A DNA stretch of 54,996 nucleotides from a virus (Duplodnaviria > Heunggongvirae > Uroviricota > Caudoviricetes): positions 1-54,996 of IMG/VR virus record IMGVR_UViG_3300045988_171436, one strand, 5' to 3'. Positions within the stretch are counted from its first letter, which is position 1. Each line of letters opens with the position of its first letter. The notes under the pieces were generated by a model. It saw only the letters and a program-made list of their open reading frames with translations, was not told where the DNA came from and did no database searches. The position numbers were made by a program, and so were the translations under genes. This document shows positions 67-18,040 of the stretch, one piece after another.

Positions 67-1230
67 TTACACATCATTAGTACCTTCCTTATTTTTTGAC
101 TGGGACAAATTTGGGACCGATGGGTTCAGGATCGAGTCTATTTGCCGTGCGTGTTCGGTAAGGTGATTAGGTGCAAGGTGAGCATATCGACGAACCATTT
201 CGATAGACTCCCAGCCTCCCATTTCCTGTAACACTGACAACGGGACTCCGGCTTGAACCAGCCAACTTGCCCAGGTGTGTCTCAAGTCGTGAAATCTGAA
301 ATCATCAATACCAGCCCGTCTCAGCGCCGCTTTCCAGGCTGTGTTTGCGTCATACCGCATCTTCCTGACTGTTGGCGCTTTCGTTCCGTCTGGTTTGGTA
401 CAGCTTTCCTTGTACACAAATACCCAACGGTGATGATTCCCGATTTGTTTTTTCAATACGCGACATGCAGTATCATTCAGCGCAACGCCAATTGCGCGGT
501 TTGATTTACTCTCTTCCGGGTTTATCCATGCCACCCGGCGCTGCATATCTATTTGTTGCCATTCAAGGTTGATGATGTTCGAGCGTCTTAGGCCTGTTGC
601 CAGTGCAAATTCAACAACAGACTTTAATGGCTCCGGACATTCATCAATCAGCCTTTGTGCTTCATGGGGCTCCAGCCAGCGGATCCGTTTATTCTTTGGT
701 TGGGGCACTTTAATAATTGGTGCCTTATCCAGCATTTTCCATTCACGCTCTGCGGCTCTTAGTAGGGCCTTTATAAATGAAAGATGCGTAGCCTTCGTTG
801 CAACGGACGCTGGTTTTGGCGTGTATTCTGGAACAGGTTTCCCTTTTTTTCTGCATGCTTCTGCCCTGAGTTTCCAGTTTTCCTCATGACGCCGGTTCGT
901 CATTTTCTGCATTGCTGAATAAATTTTTGATTCAGTAATGTCTCTTAGTTGCATTCCTGCGAAATGTTGAAGCCAGAATCCGATCCGGCTTTTGTCATCG
1001 TCCAGTGATTTTTTATGTGCTTTCTCTTCAAGCCACCTGACACACGCTTCCTCGAACGTTATATCAGGTATTTCACCAAGTTTGCTGACCCGCCATGCTT
1101 CAGCCTTTAGCTTGTCATGGAGTTCTGTCGCCTGCCTTTTGTCCTTTGTTCCAAGAGACTGTTTAAATCTTTTACCGTTCGGCAATGTGAAACTGGCGTA
1201 CCATATTTCACCTCTGCGGAAGAGTGACAT
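67..1230 (-). CDS. int: Tyrosine integrase, P22-like
   Basis: 387 aa; C-terminal HDLRHTWAS and RRYAHL motifs (R-H-R-Y catalytic signature); N-terminus [21 protein letters not shown] typical of P22-family integrases, which target thrW. Confidence 0.9.
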
Positions 1231-14476: not shown

Positions 14477-15529
14477 ATGAAAAATACTGTAAAAATAAAC
14501 AGTGTTGATTTAATCAACGCTGATTGCCTGCATTTTATTCAGTCCCTGCCTGATGATTCCATTGACCTGATTGTTACCGATCCGCCGTACTTCAAGGTGA
14601 AACCCAACGGCTGGGACAATCAGTGGAAAGGGGACGAAGATTACCTTAAGTGGCTGGACCACTGTCTGGCCCAGTTCTGGCGGGTGTTAAAACCTGCCGG
14701 AAGCCTTTACCTGTTCTGTGGGCATCGCCTGGCATCTGATATTGAGATCATGATGCGTGAACGTTTCAACGTGCTTAACCATATCATCTGGGCGAAGCCG
14801 TCCGGACGTTGGAATGGGTGTAATAAAGAAAGTCTGCGCGCATATTTTCCTGCCACAGAGCGCGTTCTGTTTGCTGAACATTACCAGGGGCCATATCGCG
14901 GCAAAAGTGACGGCTATGCGGCAAAAGAAAGGGAACTCAAACAGCACATAATGGCACCGCTGATATCGTATTTCAGGGATGCTCGTGCCGAACTGGGTAT
15001 AACGGCAAAACAAATTGCCGAAGCCACAGGTAAGAAAAATATGGTTTCCCACTGGTTTGGTGCCAGTCAGTGGCAGTTGCCGAATGAGGCTGACTATCGG
15101 AAGTTACAGGCTCTGTTTTCCCGTATAGCGGCAGAGAAGTTTCAGGAACAACAACTGGAACAACCACACCACCAGCTGGTGGCATCTTATGATTCACTGA
15201 ATCGCAAATATTCTGAATTGCTGGATGAGTTTAAATCTCTCCGGCGCTATTTCTCCGTATCAGTCTCCGTGCCTTATACCGATGTCTGGACGCATAAGCC
15301 CGTTCAGTTCTACCCGGGTAAACATCCGTGCGAGAAACCGGCGGATATGCTCCGGCAAATAATCAATGCCAGTAGTCGACCTGGTGATCTGGTTGCTGAT
15401 TTCTTTATGGGATCCGGTTCCACAATAAAAGCAGCAATGGCGCTGGGGCGTCGGGCGTTAGGTGTTGAACTTGAGTCAGAGCGGTTTAATCAGACGGTGA
15501 AAGAGGTAAGTGAACTGGTGGGGAAATAA
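14477..15529 (+). CDS. DNA methyltransferase (N6-adenine/N4-cytosine, beta class)
   Basis: IVTDPPYF (motif IV) upstream of FFMGSGST (motif I FxGxG). Confidence 0.8.
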   Translation: MKNTVKINSVDLINADCLHFIQSLPDDSIDLIVTDPPYFKVKPNGWDNQWKGDEDYLKWLDHCLAQFWRVLKPAGSLYLFCGHRLASDIEIMMRERFNVLNHIIWAKPSGRWNGCNKESLRAYFPATERVLFAEHYQGPYRGKSDGYAAKERELKQHIMAPLISYFRDARAELGITAKQIAEATGKKNMVSHWFGASQWQLPNEADYRKLQALFSRIAAEKFQEQQLEQPHHQLVASYDSLNRKYSELLDEFKSLRRYFSVSVSVPYTDVWTHKPVQFYPGKHPCEKPADMLRQIINASSRPGDLVADFFMGSGSTIKAAMALGRRALGVELESERFNQTVKEVSELVGK

Positions 15530-15605
15530 TTCTGGTGGCCACGTTGCGTGGCCTTTTTATTTCCAACACAGCACCCGCAAATATCGCGAGGTGAGAGATG
15601 ACGAA

Positions 15606-15932
15606 ATGCCTCATAACCCAAATACCTGGCTGGACTTGGTCCAGAGCTGGTGGCGTGGAGACACACCGCTGGGTGCAGTGATTATGTCGATCGTTATGGC
15701 TGGTTTGCGCATCGCCTATTTTGGCGGTGGTGGTGGCTGGAAGCGAAAAACGCTCGAAATTCTACTCTGTGGCGCTCTGACGCTGACTTTTGCATCCGCT
15801 CTTGAGTATGTCGGATGGCCTAAATCACTTTCTGTTGCCATTGGTGGTGGGGTGGGGCTGATCGGTGTCGATGCTATTCGTGGGGCTGCAATGCGAGTAA
15901 TCGGTAACAAATTTGGTGGCTCTAAGGAGTAA
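15606..15932 (+). CDS. S: Holin (lambda S-like)
   Basis: Hydrophobic segments, AYFGGGGGWKRKT region resembling the lambda S loop, charged C-terminus; directly upstream of endolysin. Confidence 0.65.
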   Translation: MPHNPNTWLDLVQSWWRGDTPLGAVIMSIVMAGLRIAYFGGGGGWKRKTLEILLCGALTLTFASALEYVGWPKSLSVAIGGGVGLIGVDAIRGAAMRVIGNKFGGSKE

Positions 15933-15935
15933 TTT

Positions 15936-16412
15936 ATGCAGGTACTAAATTCCCAGCGTAAAGCTTTCCTTGATATGGTGGCTTGGTCAGAAGGAACGGA
16001 TAACGGACGACAACCGACACGTAACCACGGTTATGACGTTATTGTCGGTGGTGAACTCTTCACTGATTACTCCGATCACCCTCGCAAACTTGTCACGCTA
16101 AACCCGAAACTCAAGTCAACAGCCGCCGGACGTTACCAGCTTCTTTCACGCTGGTGGGATGCTTACCGTAAACAGCTTGGCCTGAAAGATTTTTCTCCAG
16201 AAAGCCAGGACGCTGTAGCTCTGCAGCAGATTAAAGAGCGTGACGCTTTACCGATGATTGACCGTGGCAATATTCGTCAGGCAATCGACCGTTGCAGCAA
16301 TATTTGGGCTTCATTGCCCGGTGCTGGCTACGGTCAGTATGAACACAAGATCGATAGTCTGATTGCCAAATTCAAAGAAGCTGGCGGGGTGGTTAATGAA
16401 ACTTCGCTATAA
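15936..16412 (+). CDS. R: Endolysin, lambda R-like lytic transglycosylase
   Basis: Near-identity over long stretches to lambda R as remembered (QRKAFLDM.AWSEGTDNGRQ.TRNHGYDVIVGGELFTDYSDHPRKLVTLNPKLKST.AGRYQLLSRWWDAYRKQLGLKDFSP). Confidence 0.9.
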   Translation: MQVLNSQRKAFLDMVAWSEGTDNGRQPTRNHGYDVIVGGELFTDYSDHPRKLVTLNPKLKSTAAGRYQLLSRWWDAYRKQLGLKDFSPESQDAVALQQIKERDALPMIDRGNIRQAIDRCSNIWASLPGAGYGQYEHKIDSLIAKFKEAGGVVNETSL

Positions 16413-16788
16413 GCTGGTTATTTCTGCTTTCCTCCTGACTTTATTCGGTTCTCTCGTCTGGTCAGCTAACCATTACCACAGCAAATACCAGCGCGAAAAG
16501 AAACGTGCTGATGAGGCTGTACAAAATGCCGAATCGGCAACCGCTATTACCAATAACGTCCTGCAATCACTGCAAATCGTCAATACAGTTCTGGAGGCTA
16601 ACCAGCATGCAAAACAGCAGATCGCACTGGAGTCACAGAGAACCCAGGCTGATATCAAAGTGGCTGTTGCGGATGATGATTGTGCTGTACGCCCTGTGCC
16701 TGCTGCCGCTGCTGACCGGTTGCGGAAGTACGCGAACAGTTTACGTGAGCATTCCGAAGACTCCACTACCAGTCAGCTTGACTTCTGA
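16396..16788 (+). CDS. Rz: i-spanin (Rz-like)
   Basis: N-terminal TM (LVISAFLLTLFGSLVW), coiled-coil-like remainder, overlaps endolysin stop. Confidence 0.65.
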   Translation: MKLRYKLVISAFLLTLFGSLVWSANHYHSKYQREKKRADEAVQNAESATAITNNVLQSLQIVNTVLEANQHAKQQIALESQRTQADIKVAVADDDCAVRPVPAAAADRLRKYANSLREHSEDSTTSQLDF

Positions 16789-16921
16789 TACACCTGTACC
16801 GTTTATACCCAACCCACTGACGTATGGTGCAAGTCTTGATTTGAATGTAAGTTTGTTATCCGCGTTGGCTCAATGTAATAGGGATAAGTCAGATATCAGA
16901 ATCATTGATAATCAAAATTGA
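16673..16921 (+). CDS. Rz1: o-spanin (Rz1-like lipoprotein), overlapped with and extending past Rz
   Basis: MMIVLYALCLLPLLTGC lipobox followed by Pro-rich segment, +1 frame inside the Rz 3' end. Confidence 0.5.
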   Translation: MMIVLYALCLLPLLTGCGSTRTVYVSIPKTPLPVSLTSDTPVPFIPNPLTYGASLDLNVSLLSALAQCNRDKSDIRIIDNQN

Positions 16922-17125
16922 TGTATATTTTTATCGTCATGTAGATAACGAACAAGGTATTCCTCTGATACGTATTCGTTGAATACAGGTCATGGGTAGG
17001 CATTGCAATATCGCTTCGAAATTATCTGTGATAATGCTCTTAATTTTGAATGTATGTATTTGGGAAAAGAGATAAAGTAATAGTCTAATTAATGGAGATA
17101 TCCACAAAACACAAAAGGGACTATT

Positions 17126-17632
17126 ATGAGACCAGATCAATTTTTCTATCCAGATACTTTTACCTTTAATTCATCCACCTATTATGGTCAACGTGACTCA
17201 TCTAAAGGCCGATTGTATATTCCTATTGAAAGTGACTTATGCCCATTTAATATCGGCGATATCATTGTACAAAAAATGGTCGACAGGGAAAGACTATTTG
17301 AAGTGCTTGATTACGAGGTGCAAATTAGTCTCGAGGTTGGTTGCCCTGGCTACTCACATTTGGCGGTATTGATAGTGAAGGCATTGGATGTAAAAGAGAA
17401 GCCGAAGCAGATTACGACCCATTTGACGTTTAACGGTGCTATTAATGCTGGTGGTGATTTTCAAGCCGGTAATGATAATTCGATCACAAAGAATATAACC
17501 ATTCAACAACTACATGATGCTATAGAGCATTGCAATGATCCAGAGGTTAAAAGCCTTTGGCAAAAGCTATTGGAAAATCCGACGTTTGCTTCAATTGCTT
17601 CAATATTGGCAAAAAGTGCTTTAGGACAGTAA
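17126..17632 (+). CDS. Hypothetical protein (168 aa), AT-rich moron between lysis and packaging modules
   Basis: ORF preceded by about 330 bp of AT-rich non-coding DNA and followed by a terminator. Confidence 0.5.
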   Translation: MRPDQFFYPDTFTFNSSTYYGQRDSSKGRLYIPIESDLCPFNIGDIIVQKMVDRERLFEVLDYEVQISLEVGCPGYSHLAVLIVKALDVKEKPKQITTHLTFNGAINAGGDFQAGNDNSITKNITIQQLHDAIEHCNDPEVKSLWQKLLENPTFASIASILAKSALGQ

Positions 17633-17640
17633 TTCATCAA

Positions 17641-17664
17641 GCCCCATTCAATATGGGGTTTTTA
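17641..17664 (+). terminator. Rho-independent terminator
   Basis: CCCCA-TTCAATA-TGGGG followed by TTTTTA. Confidence 0.6.
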
Positions 17665-17689
17665 TGCTTATTACAAAGAGTTTTCTTCA

Positions 17690-18040
17690 ATGCCACCACG
17701 AATCCCAAAATCCTGCCGCGTTCGCGGCTGCCGCCATACCACTACTGACCCGTCAGGCTACTGCGAAAGCCACAAAAACGAAGGCTGGAAGCAATACAAG
17801 CCAGGACAATCCCGTCATCAGCGCGGCTACGGTTCGAAATGGGATGCTATCCGTGAACGTGTACTGAAACGTGACAAAGGTTTATGTCAGTTATGTCTGC
17901 GTGCCGGTGTGGTGCGTGAAGCGAAAACCGTTGACCACATCATCCCTAAAGCGCATGGCGGCACTGATGCCGACTGTAATCTGCAGAGTCTGTGCTGGCC
18001 GTGTCATAAGGCGAAGACGGCCCGTGAACGGTTGAAGTGA
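17690..18040 (+). CDS. HNH endonuclease (packaging-associated)
   Basis: CQLCLRAG...VDHIIPKAHGGTDADCNLQSLCWPCHKAKT HNH motif; immediately upstream of terminase. Confidence 0.8.
   Translation: MPPRIPKSCRVRGCRHTTTDPSGYCESHKNEGWKQYKPGQSRHQRGYGSKWDAIRERVLKRDKGLCQLCLRAGVVREAKTVDHIIPKAHGGTDADCNLQSLCWPCHKAKTARERLK

What the first reader, a model, noticed from the sequence alone, without database searches (positions are those of the whole stretch)
16396..16921. Overlapped rather than embedded spanin pair
The Rz1-like lipoprotein ORF starts inside Rz in the +1 frame but extends 133 nt beyond the Rz stop, unlike lambda's fully embedded Rz1. The C-terminal extension is unusual and may be an annotation artefact or a genuine variant.
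Basis: seen in the sequence. Interest (0 to 1): 0.2.

Follow-up and report, generated by a model that had tools for sequence, protein, structure and literature searches.

The report
Ordinary overlapped phage spanin gene pair
This is a normal, already catalogued pair of phage genes for breaking the bacterial outer membrane, arranged in the commonest known layout (one gene starts inside the other and runs past its end), so the "extension" is real coding sequence and not an error.

Summary
The i-spanin gene (Rz, 16396-16788) is overlapped in the +1 frame by a lipoprotein gene (o-spanin, Rz1) that ends at 16921, 133 nt past the Rz stop. The layout is not unusual and not an artefact.

- **Family:** the o-spanin scores 57 bits against Pfam PF23793 (LysC; cut-off 27). 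P2 LysC and the Mu o-spanin match the same model, which covers residues 13-80 of 82, so the "extension" is the family core.
- **Relatives:** all 10 related phage loci examined keep the +1 frame and run 133-202 nt past the i-spanin stop. None has a stop inside Rz. P2 lysB/lysC has a 145-nt extension.
- **Selection:** within the extension, substitutions fall mainly on the third codon position of the Rz1 frame (0.19/0.18/0.60), with dN about 0.2 and dS saturated.
- **Prior knowledge:** Kongari et al. 2018 found overlapped to be the commonest two-component architecture (228 of 528) and placed SfV and SfIV in the Mu o-spanin family. RefSeq annotates this gene (99.8% identical DNA) as lysC in E. coli strain 127.
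- **Experiment in a relative:** an amber codon in Mu gp23.1, at a position that aligns inside the extension, abolishes spanin function.

Verdict: already known, low interest. The o-spanin probably starts at ATG 16607.

The parts
15606..15932 (+). Holin, lambda S family (108 aa); first gene of the lysis cassette
   Evidence: Pfam PF05106 at 88 bits. NCBIfam TIGR01594 holin_lambda at 120 bits against a cut-off of 55. phrog_126.
15936..16412 (+). Endolysin, lambda R-like (158 aa)
   Evidence: phrog_90 endolysin, E=2.7e-63. RefSeq names the same gene in E. coli strain 127 a glycoside hydrolase family 24 protein. Annotated as R/lysin in SfV, SfII and SfIV.
16396..16788 (+). i-spanin (Rz), 130 aa. 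It has an N-terminal transmembrane helix (about aa 7-23), a long periplasmic helix, a linker DDDCAVRPVPAAA with Cys95, and a distal helix 103-121.
   Evidence: phrog_214 Rz-like spanin, E=3e-47. Annotated Rz/i-spanin in SfV, SfII, SfIV and Mulock. The AF2 model has helices 2-93 and 103-121 with mean pLDDT 83. Pfam DUF2570 reaches only 20.5 bits against a cut-off of 26.6.
16593..16597 (+). GGAGG ribosome-binding site, 9 nt upstream of ATG 16607 (the likely o-spanin start)
   Evidence: Read directly from the sequence. GAGG plus the ATG are conserved in SfV, SfII, SfIV, 720R4 and Mulock (alignment). The Mulock annotators marked an RBS and the long start at the same place.
16607..16921 (+). o-spanin (Rz1/LysC-type outer-membrane lipoprotein) in the +1 frame of Rz. 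The precursor is 104 aa; alternative starts are ATG 16673 and 16676 (82 and 81 aa). The mature form is 66 aa from the lipid-modified Cys.
   Evidence: Pfam PF23793 LysC at 56-57 bits against a cut-off of 27. phrog_456. 331 homologues, many of them named Rz1-like lysis system protein LysC. RefSeq annotates lysC at the matching place in E. coli strain 127.
16712..16723 (+). Lipobox L-T-G-C. The Cys (16721-16723) becomes residue 1 of the mature protein. Gly at +2 (not Asp) fits outer-membrane sorting.
   Evidence: Sequence. G16 and C17 are invariant in 41 homologues. 119 of 120 homologues carry a lipobox.
16607..16788 (+). Dual-coding overlap of Rz (frame 0) and the o-spanin (frame +1): 182 nt, or 116 nt if the start is 16673
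   Evidence: Overall variation is reduced here and is highest at Rz-frame position 1, which is Rz1-frame position 3. dN/dS is 0.25-0.51 in the Rz1 frame and 0.48-1.2 in the Rz frame.
16789..16921 (+). The 'extension': the o-spanin-only part, coding residues 40-82 of the 82-aa form. It holds the conserved motif PLTYGASLDLNVSLLSALxQCNxDKxxIR, the invariant Cys68 and a predicted helix at 51-81.
   Evidence: Variation by codon position is 0.19/0.18/0.60 in the Rz1 frame. dN is 0.16-0.24 with dS saturated, while the other two frames give ratios of 0.8-3.7. 10 of the 19 invariant alignment columns lie here. The AF2 helix 51-81 has pLDDT 75-85. The Pfam model extends to residue 80.

Best explanation
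This is the two-component spanin of an SfV-like E. coli prophage, and its genes are in the standard 'overlapped' architecture. Rz (16396-16788) encodes an inner-membrane protein with one N-terminal transmembrane helix and a helical periplasmic domain. The o-spanin gene starts inside Rz in the +1 frame, most likely at ATG 16607, and ends at 16921. It encodes an outer-membrane lipoprotein whose Pro-rich linker is coded in the overlap. Its conserved C-terminal helix and Cys68 are coded in the 133 nt past the Rz stop.

Mechanism, inferred from the family: the two proteins join through their C-terminal periplasmic parts into a complex spanning the periplasm, probably stabilised by homotypic disulfides (Rz Cys95, o-spanin Cys68). 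Once the holin (15606-15932) and the endolysin (15936-16412) have removed the peptidoglycan, the complex fuses the inner and outer membranes and releases the progeny.

Shown here: the gene anatomy, the family membership, the conservation of the layout and purifying selection on the extension. Inferred: localisation, complex formation, disulfides and membrane fusion.
For: - **Anatomy:**
- **Cassette context:** holin, endolysin, then spanins.
- **o-spanin family:** it matches Pfam PF23793 above the cut-off, and P2 LysC (64.9 bits) and Mu gp23.1 (52.7 bits) match the same model.
- **i-spanin family:** phrog_214, E=3e-47.
- **Layout in relatives:** the +1 frame and a 133-202 nt extension are present in SfV, SfII, SfIV, 720R4, 689R6, Mu, Mulock, CobraSix, Eho49 and APSE-1. 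P2 lysB/lysC has a 146-nt overlap and a 145-nt extension.
- **Selection:** third-position substitution bias and low dN/dS appear only in the Rz1 frame of the extension.
- **Conservation:** 10 of 19 invariant residues lie in the extension.
- **Predicted structure:** Rz is TM helix plus two helices; the o-spanin is signal peptide, Pro-rich coil and a C-terminal helix.
- **Existing annotation:** RefSeq has the same two overlapping CDSs in E. coli strain 127. 698 of 5426 complete E. coli genomes hold a match.
- **Literature:** overlapped is the most common class, and SfV and SfIV sit in the Mu o-spanin family (PMC6139136).
- **Experiment in a family member:** Mu gp23.1 W65am gives the spherical-cell spanin defect and is rescued by lambda RzRz1 (PMC9239132). 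W65 aligns with Y51 of the window protein, inside the extension (my count from the sequences).
Against: No experiment exists for this exact pair. The i-spanin falls below the Pfam DUF2570 gathering score (20.5 against 26.6) and has no NCBIfam hit. The o-spanin also has no NCBIfam hit in this library. Similarity to P2 LysC is weak pairwise (30% identity, E=0.02) and similarity to P2 LysB is absent, so the link to P2 rests on the Pfam profile and on the layout. The start codon is unresolved: database annotations split about evenly between the long start (57) and the short start (about 55). The last 6 residues and the stop come from a foreign AT-rich insertion, although tails of 5-20 residues occur in homologues.
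Confidence: 0.94

Rival explanations
1. Sequencing or assembly error: a lost stop or an indel makes an originally embedded Rz1 read through past the Rz stop.
For: None found. The only support is that lambda, whose S and R genes resemble those here, has an embedded Rz1. HK633, which shares this Rz membrane anchor, also has an embedded Rz1.
Against: Ten independent related phage sequences have the same +1 frame and a 133-202 nt extension with no stop inside Rz. An independently sequenced phage and an E. coli chromosome are 99.8% identical across the region. The protein matches the LysC Pfam model end to end. The embedded Rz1 of HK633 is an unrelated sequence.
Confidence: 0.01
2. The stretch 16789-16921 is non-coding and open by chance. 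The real o-spanin would be a short product, and the extension an artefact of gene calling.
For: Gene callers often mis-handle o-spanins: 196 were unannotated and 64 had wrong starts in the survey (PMC6139136).
Against: There is no stop in that frame before 16919. Substitutions among relatives fall at third positions of this frame (0.60 against 0.19 and 0.18), while the other frames give dN/dS of 0.8-3.7. The most conserved residues of the family lie here. Mu gp23.1 W65am, which aligns inside this part, is lysis-defective.
Confidence: 0.01
3. The pair is real, but the o-spanin starts at ATG 16673 or 16676 (82 or 81 aa, 116-nt overlap) and not at 16607. This is a rival only on the start site and the length of the signal peptide.
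For: RefSeq uses this start in E. coli strain 127. About half of the database entries place the Cys at position 16-17. A 16-residue signal is closer to the usual lipoprotein signal length. The MM pair is conserved in the SfV group.
Against: No Shine-Dalgarno motif precedes 16673, whereas GGAGG sits 9 nt before 16607. The short signal peptide has no positively charged n-region. The distant relatives CobraSix and APSE-1 have no Met near the hydrophobic core, so a long, basic n-region is their only ATG-initiated option. The Mulock annotators chose the long start together with an RBS.
Confidence: 0.3
4. The genes are intact in sequence but belong to a decaying prophage and are no longer expressed or functional.
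For: The window is a prophage. A foreign AT-rich cassette has replaced the end of the o-spanin gene.
Against: All four lysis ORFs are intact. A deposited phage genome record, vB_EcoM-689R6, is 99.8% identical over the region. The o-spanin retains the whole Pfam core, and its tail length lies within the range seen in homologues.
Confidence: 0.04

Closest known systems
Shigella phage SfV Rz/Rz1 (orf51/orf52), with SfII and SfIV i-spanin/o-spanin
   Same: The cassette order is the same (S, R, Rz, Rz1), with 87-91% DNA identity over the matched part of the cassette. Rz is 393 nt in each. Rz1 is in the +1 frame with the same SD-ATG, lipobox and C-terminal motif, at 61-74% o-spanin identity.
   Different: The extension is 157-160 nt in those phages and 133 nt here. 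The last residues differ (IRIIDNQN here; IRSIEMRRNALLAAVR in SfV), because homology ends at 16880-16901 where an AT-rich cassette is inserted.
Phage Mu gp23/gp23.1 two-component spanin (Chamblee et al. 2022, PMC9239132)
   Same: Same Pfam family for the o-spanin. The layout is overlapped in the +1 frame, with 48.5% identity over the core. Kongari et al. place SfV and SfIV in the Mu o-spanin family. Mu is the member with genetic proof of spanin function.
   Different: Mu has a 202-nt extension and a longer C-terminal tail. It pairs the spanins with a SAR endolysin and a releasin instead of a lambda-type holin and endolysin. The i-spanins are only distantly similar (alignment score 123 against 645 for self).
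Phage P2 LysB/LysC, the textbook 'overlapped' spanin pair
   Same: The geometry is nearly identical: a 146-nt overlap and a 145-nt extension in P2, against 182 or 116 nt and 133 nt here. LysC and the window o-spanin both match PF23793 over the whole model.
   Different: Pairwise similarity is weak for the o-spanin (30% identity, E=0.02) and absent for the i-spanin. In P2, lysC also overlaps the next gene, R.
Phage lambda Rz/Rz1 (embedded) and its HK633 relative
   Same: Same role and position after lambda-type S and R genes. The first 28 residues of Rz (the membrane anchor) are identical to HK633 Rz. Same topology logic: an inner-membrane anchor plus an outer-membrane lipoprotein.
   Different: In HK633 (this comparison) and in lambda (the architecture named in PMC6139136), Rz1 lies wholly inside Rz: L013 1539-1751 within 1343-1804. 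Lambda's mature Rz1 is short (about 40 aa, from general knowledge). The window proteins give no hit at E<=0.1 to any Pfam family other than those listed, so they do not match the lambda Rz or Rz1 families. The periplasmic domains are unrelated in sequence. The o-spanin here has a predicted C-terminal helix.

Membership tests
Two-component spanin, overlapped architecture (Summer et al. 2007; Kongari et al. 2018) | The i-spanin has an N-terminal transmembrane domain followed by a mainly alpha-helical periplasmic domain. | tested here: met
   Hydrophobic stretch LVISAFLLTLFGSLVW at aa 7-22. The AF2 model has helices 2-93 and 103-121. phrog_214 Rz-like spanin, E=3e-47.
Two-component spanin, overlapped architecture (Summer et al. 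2007; Kongari et al. 2018) | The o-spanin has a lipoprotein signal with a lipobox Cys and no inner-membrane retention residue (Asp) at +2. | tested here: met
   LLTG|CGS. The Cys is invariant in 41 homologues, and +2 is Gly.
Two-component spanin, overlapped architecture (Summer et al. 2007; Kongari et al. 2018) | The o-spanin gene starts inside the i-spanin gene in another frame and extends beyond its stop. | tested here: met
   +1 frame, start 16607 or 16673, Rz stop 16788, o-spanin stop 16921. The same holds in 10 of 10 relatives.
Two-component spanin, overlapped architecture (Summer et al. 2007; Kongari et al. 2018) | The pair lies in the lysis cassette next to the holin and the endolysin. 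| tested here: met
   Holin 15606-15932, endolysin 15936-16412, then the spanins.
Two-component spanin, overlapped architecture (Summer et al. 2007; Kongari et al. 2018) | At least one periplasmic Cys is available for intermolecular disulfides (507 of 528 systems have one). | tested here: met
   Rz Cys95 and o-spanin Cys68 (invariant). Disulfide formation itself was not tested.
Two-component spanin, overlapped architecture (Summer et al. 2007; Kongari et al. 2018) | The pair is required for outer-membrane disruption: the null gives spherical cells in Mg2+ and is complemented by lambda RzRz1. | not testable with these tools
   Shown only for the family member Mu gp23/gp23.1 (PMC9239132).
Pfam PF23793 LysC (Rz1-like lysis system protein LysC) | Whole-protein score above the gathering cut-off of 27 bits. 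| tested here: met
   57.0 bits for the 82-aa form and 56.0 bits for the 104-aa form, covering model positions 2-67 of 69. P2 LysC scores 64.9 bits and Mu gp23.1 scores 52.7 bits.
Pfam PF10828 DUF2570 (the name RefSeq gives the i-spanin) | Whole-protein score above the gathering cut-off of 26.6 bits. | tested here: not met
   20.5 bits, E=4.8e-4, aligned over 10-104 of 108 model positions. Mu gp23 scores 18.3 bits. RefSeq nevertheless names the corresponding gene in E. coli strain 127 a DUF2570 domain-containing protein.
Lambda Rz / Rz1 families (embedded architecture) | Sequence match to the lambda Rz and Rz1 Pfam families, with Rz1 wholly inside Rz. | tested here: not met
   No such Pfam family appears at E<=0.1 for either protein. 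The o-spanin ends 133 nt past Rz. Only the 28-aa membrane anchor is shared with the HK633 lambda-type Rz.

The most novel reading that the evidence does not exclude
The o-spanin may use two in-frame starts. These are ATG 16607, with a strong GGAGG site and a 39-residue signal peptide carrying a long basic n-region, and ATG 16673/16676, with a 16-17-residue uncharged signal peptide. The two precursors would be exported or lipidated at different rates. This would resemble the dual-start S107/S105 holin motif and would tune when spanin complexes become available. Both start contexts are conserved across the SfV group, and database annotations split evenly between them. Conservation there is confounded by the overlapping, highly conserved Rz codons, and no data bear on translation.
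Probability: 0.07. Interest if true: 0.35.

Novelty: already known. Interest (0 to 1): 0.07.

Why it matters
It matters little as a discovery, because the architecture, the protein family and this allele (annotated as lysC in a 99.8%-identical E. coli genome) are already in public databases and in the spanin literature. The practical value lies in annotation. The o-spanin should be called as a CDS from 16607 (or 16673) to 16921, overlapping Rz. The closest phage record and several relatives lack it or start it after the lipobox, which is the systematic gene-calling error described by Kongari et al. The locus is also a tidy example of module exchange inside a lysis cassette: a lambda-type holin, endolysin and Rz membrane anchor are joined to an SfV/Mu-type periplasmic spanin module.

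Tried and rejected
- **NCBIfam:** no hit for either spanin.
- **P2 comparisons:** BLASTP against P2 LysB found nothing and against P2 LysC only a weak match. The P2 link therefore rests on the Pfam profile and the gene geometry.
- **Sequencing error or read-through:** considered and rejected.
- **Truncated o-spanin:** I checked whether the short C-terminal tail meant truncation by the AT-rich insertion. It does not. The Pfam core is complete to residue 80, and tails of 5-20 residues after the CNxDKxxIR motif occur among 115 homologues, against 6 here.
- **Downstream 168-aa ORF (17126-17632):** Pfam, NCBIfam, PADLOC and PDB sequence searches gave no function.
- **Promoter and terminator scan:** site counts for 15400-17800 were close to those of shuffled sequence, apart from two plausible hairpins.

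Full report
**1. What is in the sequence**

The window carries a compact lysis cassette on the + strand.
- The holin (15606-15932) belongs to the lambda S family: Pfam PF05106 and NCBIfam TIGR01594 at 120 bits.
- The endolysin (15936-16412) is lambda R-like: phrog_90, E=2.7e-63.
- Rz runs from 16396 to 16788 and encodes 130 aa.
- A +1-frame ORF is open from 16505 to the stop at 16919-16921.

The +1 ORF contains MMIVLYALCLLPLLTG|C, a lipoprotein signal with the lipobox Cys at 16721-16723 and Gly at +2.

**2. Is the extension real coding sequence?**

Four independent lines of evidence say it is.

- **Family match.** The ORF scores 57 bits against Pfam PF23793, 'Rz1-like lysis system protein LysC' (cut-off 27). 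The alignment runs from residue 13 to residue 80 of 82 and covers model positions 2-67 of 69. Residues 40-82 are encoded beyond the Rz stop, so the extension is the core of the family and not an appendage. P2 LysC (64.9 bits) and the Mu o-spanin (52.7 bits) match the same model.
- **Layout in relatives.** I examined ten related phage loci: SfV, SfII, SfIV, vB_EcoM-720R4, vB_EcoM-689R6, Mu, Klebsiella phage Mulock, Enterobacter phage CobraSix, Erwinia phage Eho49 and APSE-1. In every one the homologous ORF is in the +1 frame of the i-spanin gene and ends 133-202 nt beyond its stop, and none has a stop inside Rz.
- **Substitution pattern.** I aligned the window with SfV, SfII, SfIV and Mulock.

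| Region | Frame | Mean pairwise difference at codon positions 1/2/3 |
|---|---|---|
| Extension, 16789-16903 | Rz1 | 0.19 / 0.18 / 0.60 |
| Rz-only part, 16420-16606 | Rz | 0.28 / 0.15 / 0.42 |

  In the extension, dN is 0.16-0.24 and dS is saturated; it is 1.84 against SfII, giving dN/dS of 0.10. The same bases read in the other two frames give ratios of 0.8-3.7. In the overlap, the o-spanin frame is the better conserved: dN/dS is 0.25-0.51 against 0.48-1.2 for Rz. This matches Kongari et al., who noted that o-spanins keep their homology while i-spanins diverge in the overlap.
- **Residue conservation.** In an alignment of 41 homologues, 10 of the 19 invariant columns lie in the extension: P43, P48, G52, S54, L61, A64, L65, C68, N69 and K72. 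Of the 120 best database homologues, 115 carry the strict CNxDKxxIR motif and the other five carry a near variant. Tails after the motif are 5-20 residues; the window has 6.

**3. What it is**

The i-spanin matches phrog_214, 'Rz-like spanin', at E=3e-47. Its single-sequence AF2 model has a helix from 2 to 93 that includes the membrane anchor. A linker DDDCAVRPVPAAA with Cys95 follows, then a distal helix at 103-121 (mean pLDDT 83).

The o-spanin model has a signal helix, a Pro-rich coil (7 prolines in the first 33 mature residues) and a helix at 51-81 with pLDDT 75-85. That helix lies entirely in the extension and carries the invariant Cys68.

These are the defining features of a two-component spanin. 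The accepted mechanism comes mainly from work on lambda Rz/Rz1, as summarised in PMC6139136. The complex spans the periplasm. It is held in check by the peptidoglycan meshwork until the endolysin acts, and it then fuses the inner and outer membranes. Homotypic disulfides stabilise the complex. For this locus those steps are inferred, not shown.

The nearest experimental support is in phage Mu, whose o-spanin belongs to the same family. An amber codon at W65 of gp23.1 gives the spherical-cell spanin phenotype and is rescued by lambda RzRz1 (PMC9239132). By my count from the sequences, W65 is the Trp of PLTWGASL. It aligns with Y51 of PLTYGASL here, and in both phages this residue lies downstream of the i-spanin stop.

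**4. Comparison with what is known**

Kongari et al. [quoted passage not shown] Of these, 182 were embedded, 228 overlapped and 118 separated, so overlapped is the commonest class. They list SfIV and SfV as an i-spanin group. They place both in the 'Mu' o-spanin family together with Mu, D108, ENT47670, APSE-1 and APSE-2.

P2 lysB/lysC is the prototype of the class. It has a 146-nt overlap and a 145-nt extension, almost the same geometry as here.

SfV, SfII, SfIV and Mulock are already annotated with overlapping Rz/Rz1 or i-/o-spanin genes. RefSeq annotates the same two overlapping CDSs in E. coli strain 127, at 99.8% DNA identity, as 'DUF2570 domain-containing protein' and 'lysC: Rz1-like lysis system protein LysC'. 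Of 5426 complete E. coli genomes, 698 hold a match. The finding is therefore already known.

**5.

The holin, the endolysin and the first 28 codons of Rz (the membrane anchor) are lambda/HK-phage-like. HK633 Rz is identical in protein over residues 1-28 and about 99% identical in DNA up to roughly 16480. It then continues as a lambda/Sf6-type Rz with a fully embedded Rz1: L013 1539-1751 inside 1343-1804. From about 16480 onward the window carries the SfV/Mu-type periplasmic i-spanin domain and its cognate overlapped o-spanin. The cassette is thus a mosaic in which the interacting periplasmic parts travel together.

**6. Start codon**

ATG 16607 is preceded by GGAGG at 16593-16597, with 9-nt spacing. 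The same SD-ATG is conserved in SfV, SfII, SfIV, 720R4 and Mulock, and the Mulock annotators chose it. It gives a 104-aa precursor with a long basic n-region.

The distant relatives CobraSix and APSE-1 have no Met near the hydrophobic core, so a long n-region is their only ATG option. RefSeq and about half of the database entries use the short start at 16673, which lacks both an SD and any n-region charge. I favour 16607, at about 0.7. The mature protein is the same either way.

**7. Verdict**

It is ordinary, already known and of low interest.

Noticed in passing
window 16396-16480 (compare L013 1343-1427): The first 28 codons of Rz (the membrane anchor) are identical in protein and about 99% identical in DNA to phage HK633 Rz. 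HK633 Rz then becomes a lambda/Sf6-type Rz with a fully embedded Rz1. This marks a recombination joint just after the transmembrane helix, so the periplasmic i-spanin domain and the o-spanin were exchanged as one module.
   Followed up: partly
window about 16880-17689: An AT-rich segment (30-40% GC against 50-58% in the flanks) lies between the o-spanin core and the HNH endonuclease gene (17690-18040). Homology to SfV, SfIV and 720R4 stops at 16880-16901 and resumes exactly at 17690, whereas SfV has only a 26-nt spacer there. The segment supplies the last codons and the stop of the o-spanin. It carries a 168-aa ORF (17126-17632) and a terminator-like hairpin (17639-17661), so it looks like a moron.
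   Followed up: partly
window 17126-17632: This 168-aa ORF has no known function. It matches phrog_5789 (unknown function) at E=1e-79. It has no Pfam, NCBIfam, PADLOC or PDB sequence match. It occurs in only 3 of 50,697 phage records, one of which is the 99.8%-identical vB_EcoM-689R6.
   Followed up: partly
L004 (ON470584), L005 (ON470603), L009 (NC_048197), L006 (NC_000929): Relatives contain annotation errors. ON470584 has no o-spanin CDS and labels the endolysin 'terminase small subunit'. The Rz1 CDSs of ON470603 and Eho49 gp77 start downstream of the lipobox. The Mu RefSeq record lacks gp23.1. This is the gene-calling bias against overlapped o-spanins reported in the literature.
   Followed up: yes
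window 15537-15553: A strong terminator-like hairpin (7 pairs, 6 of them G-C, followed by a T run) lies between the DNA methyltransferase gene and the holin. SfV has an annotated rho-independent terminator at the same position. It may be the late-operon terminator read through by the prophage antiterminator.
   Followed up: no
window 14477-15529: The DNA methyltransferase ORF is full length here (350 aa, as in SfV orf48). In the otherwise 99.8%-identical E. coli strain 127 prophage and in phage 689R6 it is a truncated remnant. The window's prophage therefore differs from its closest relatives just upstream of the lysis cassette.
   Followed up: no
window 1-about 37000 (context): The prophage is SfV-like. 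It has an integrase at 67-1230 (-), a lambdoid early region, an HNH endonuclease with a P27-type small terminase, an HK97-type head and a Mu-like contractile tail. In E. coli strain 127 the matching prophage sits beside tRNA-Thr downstream of proA. No tRNA gene lies inside the window.
   Followed up: no
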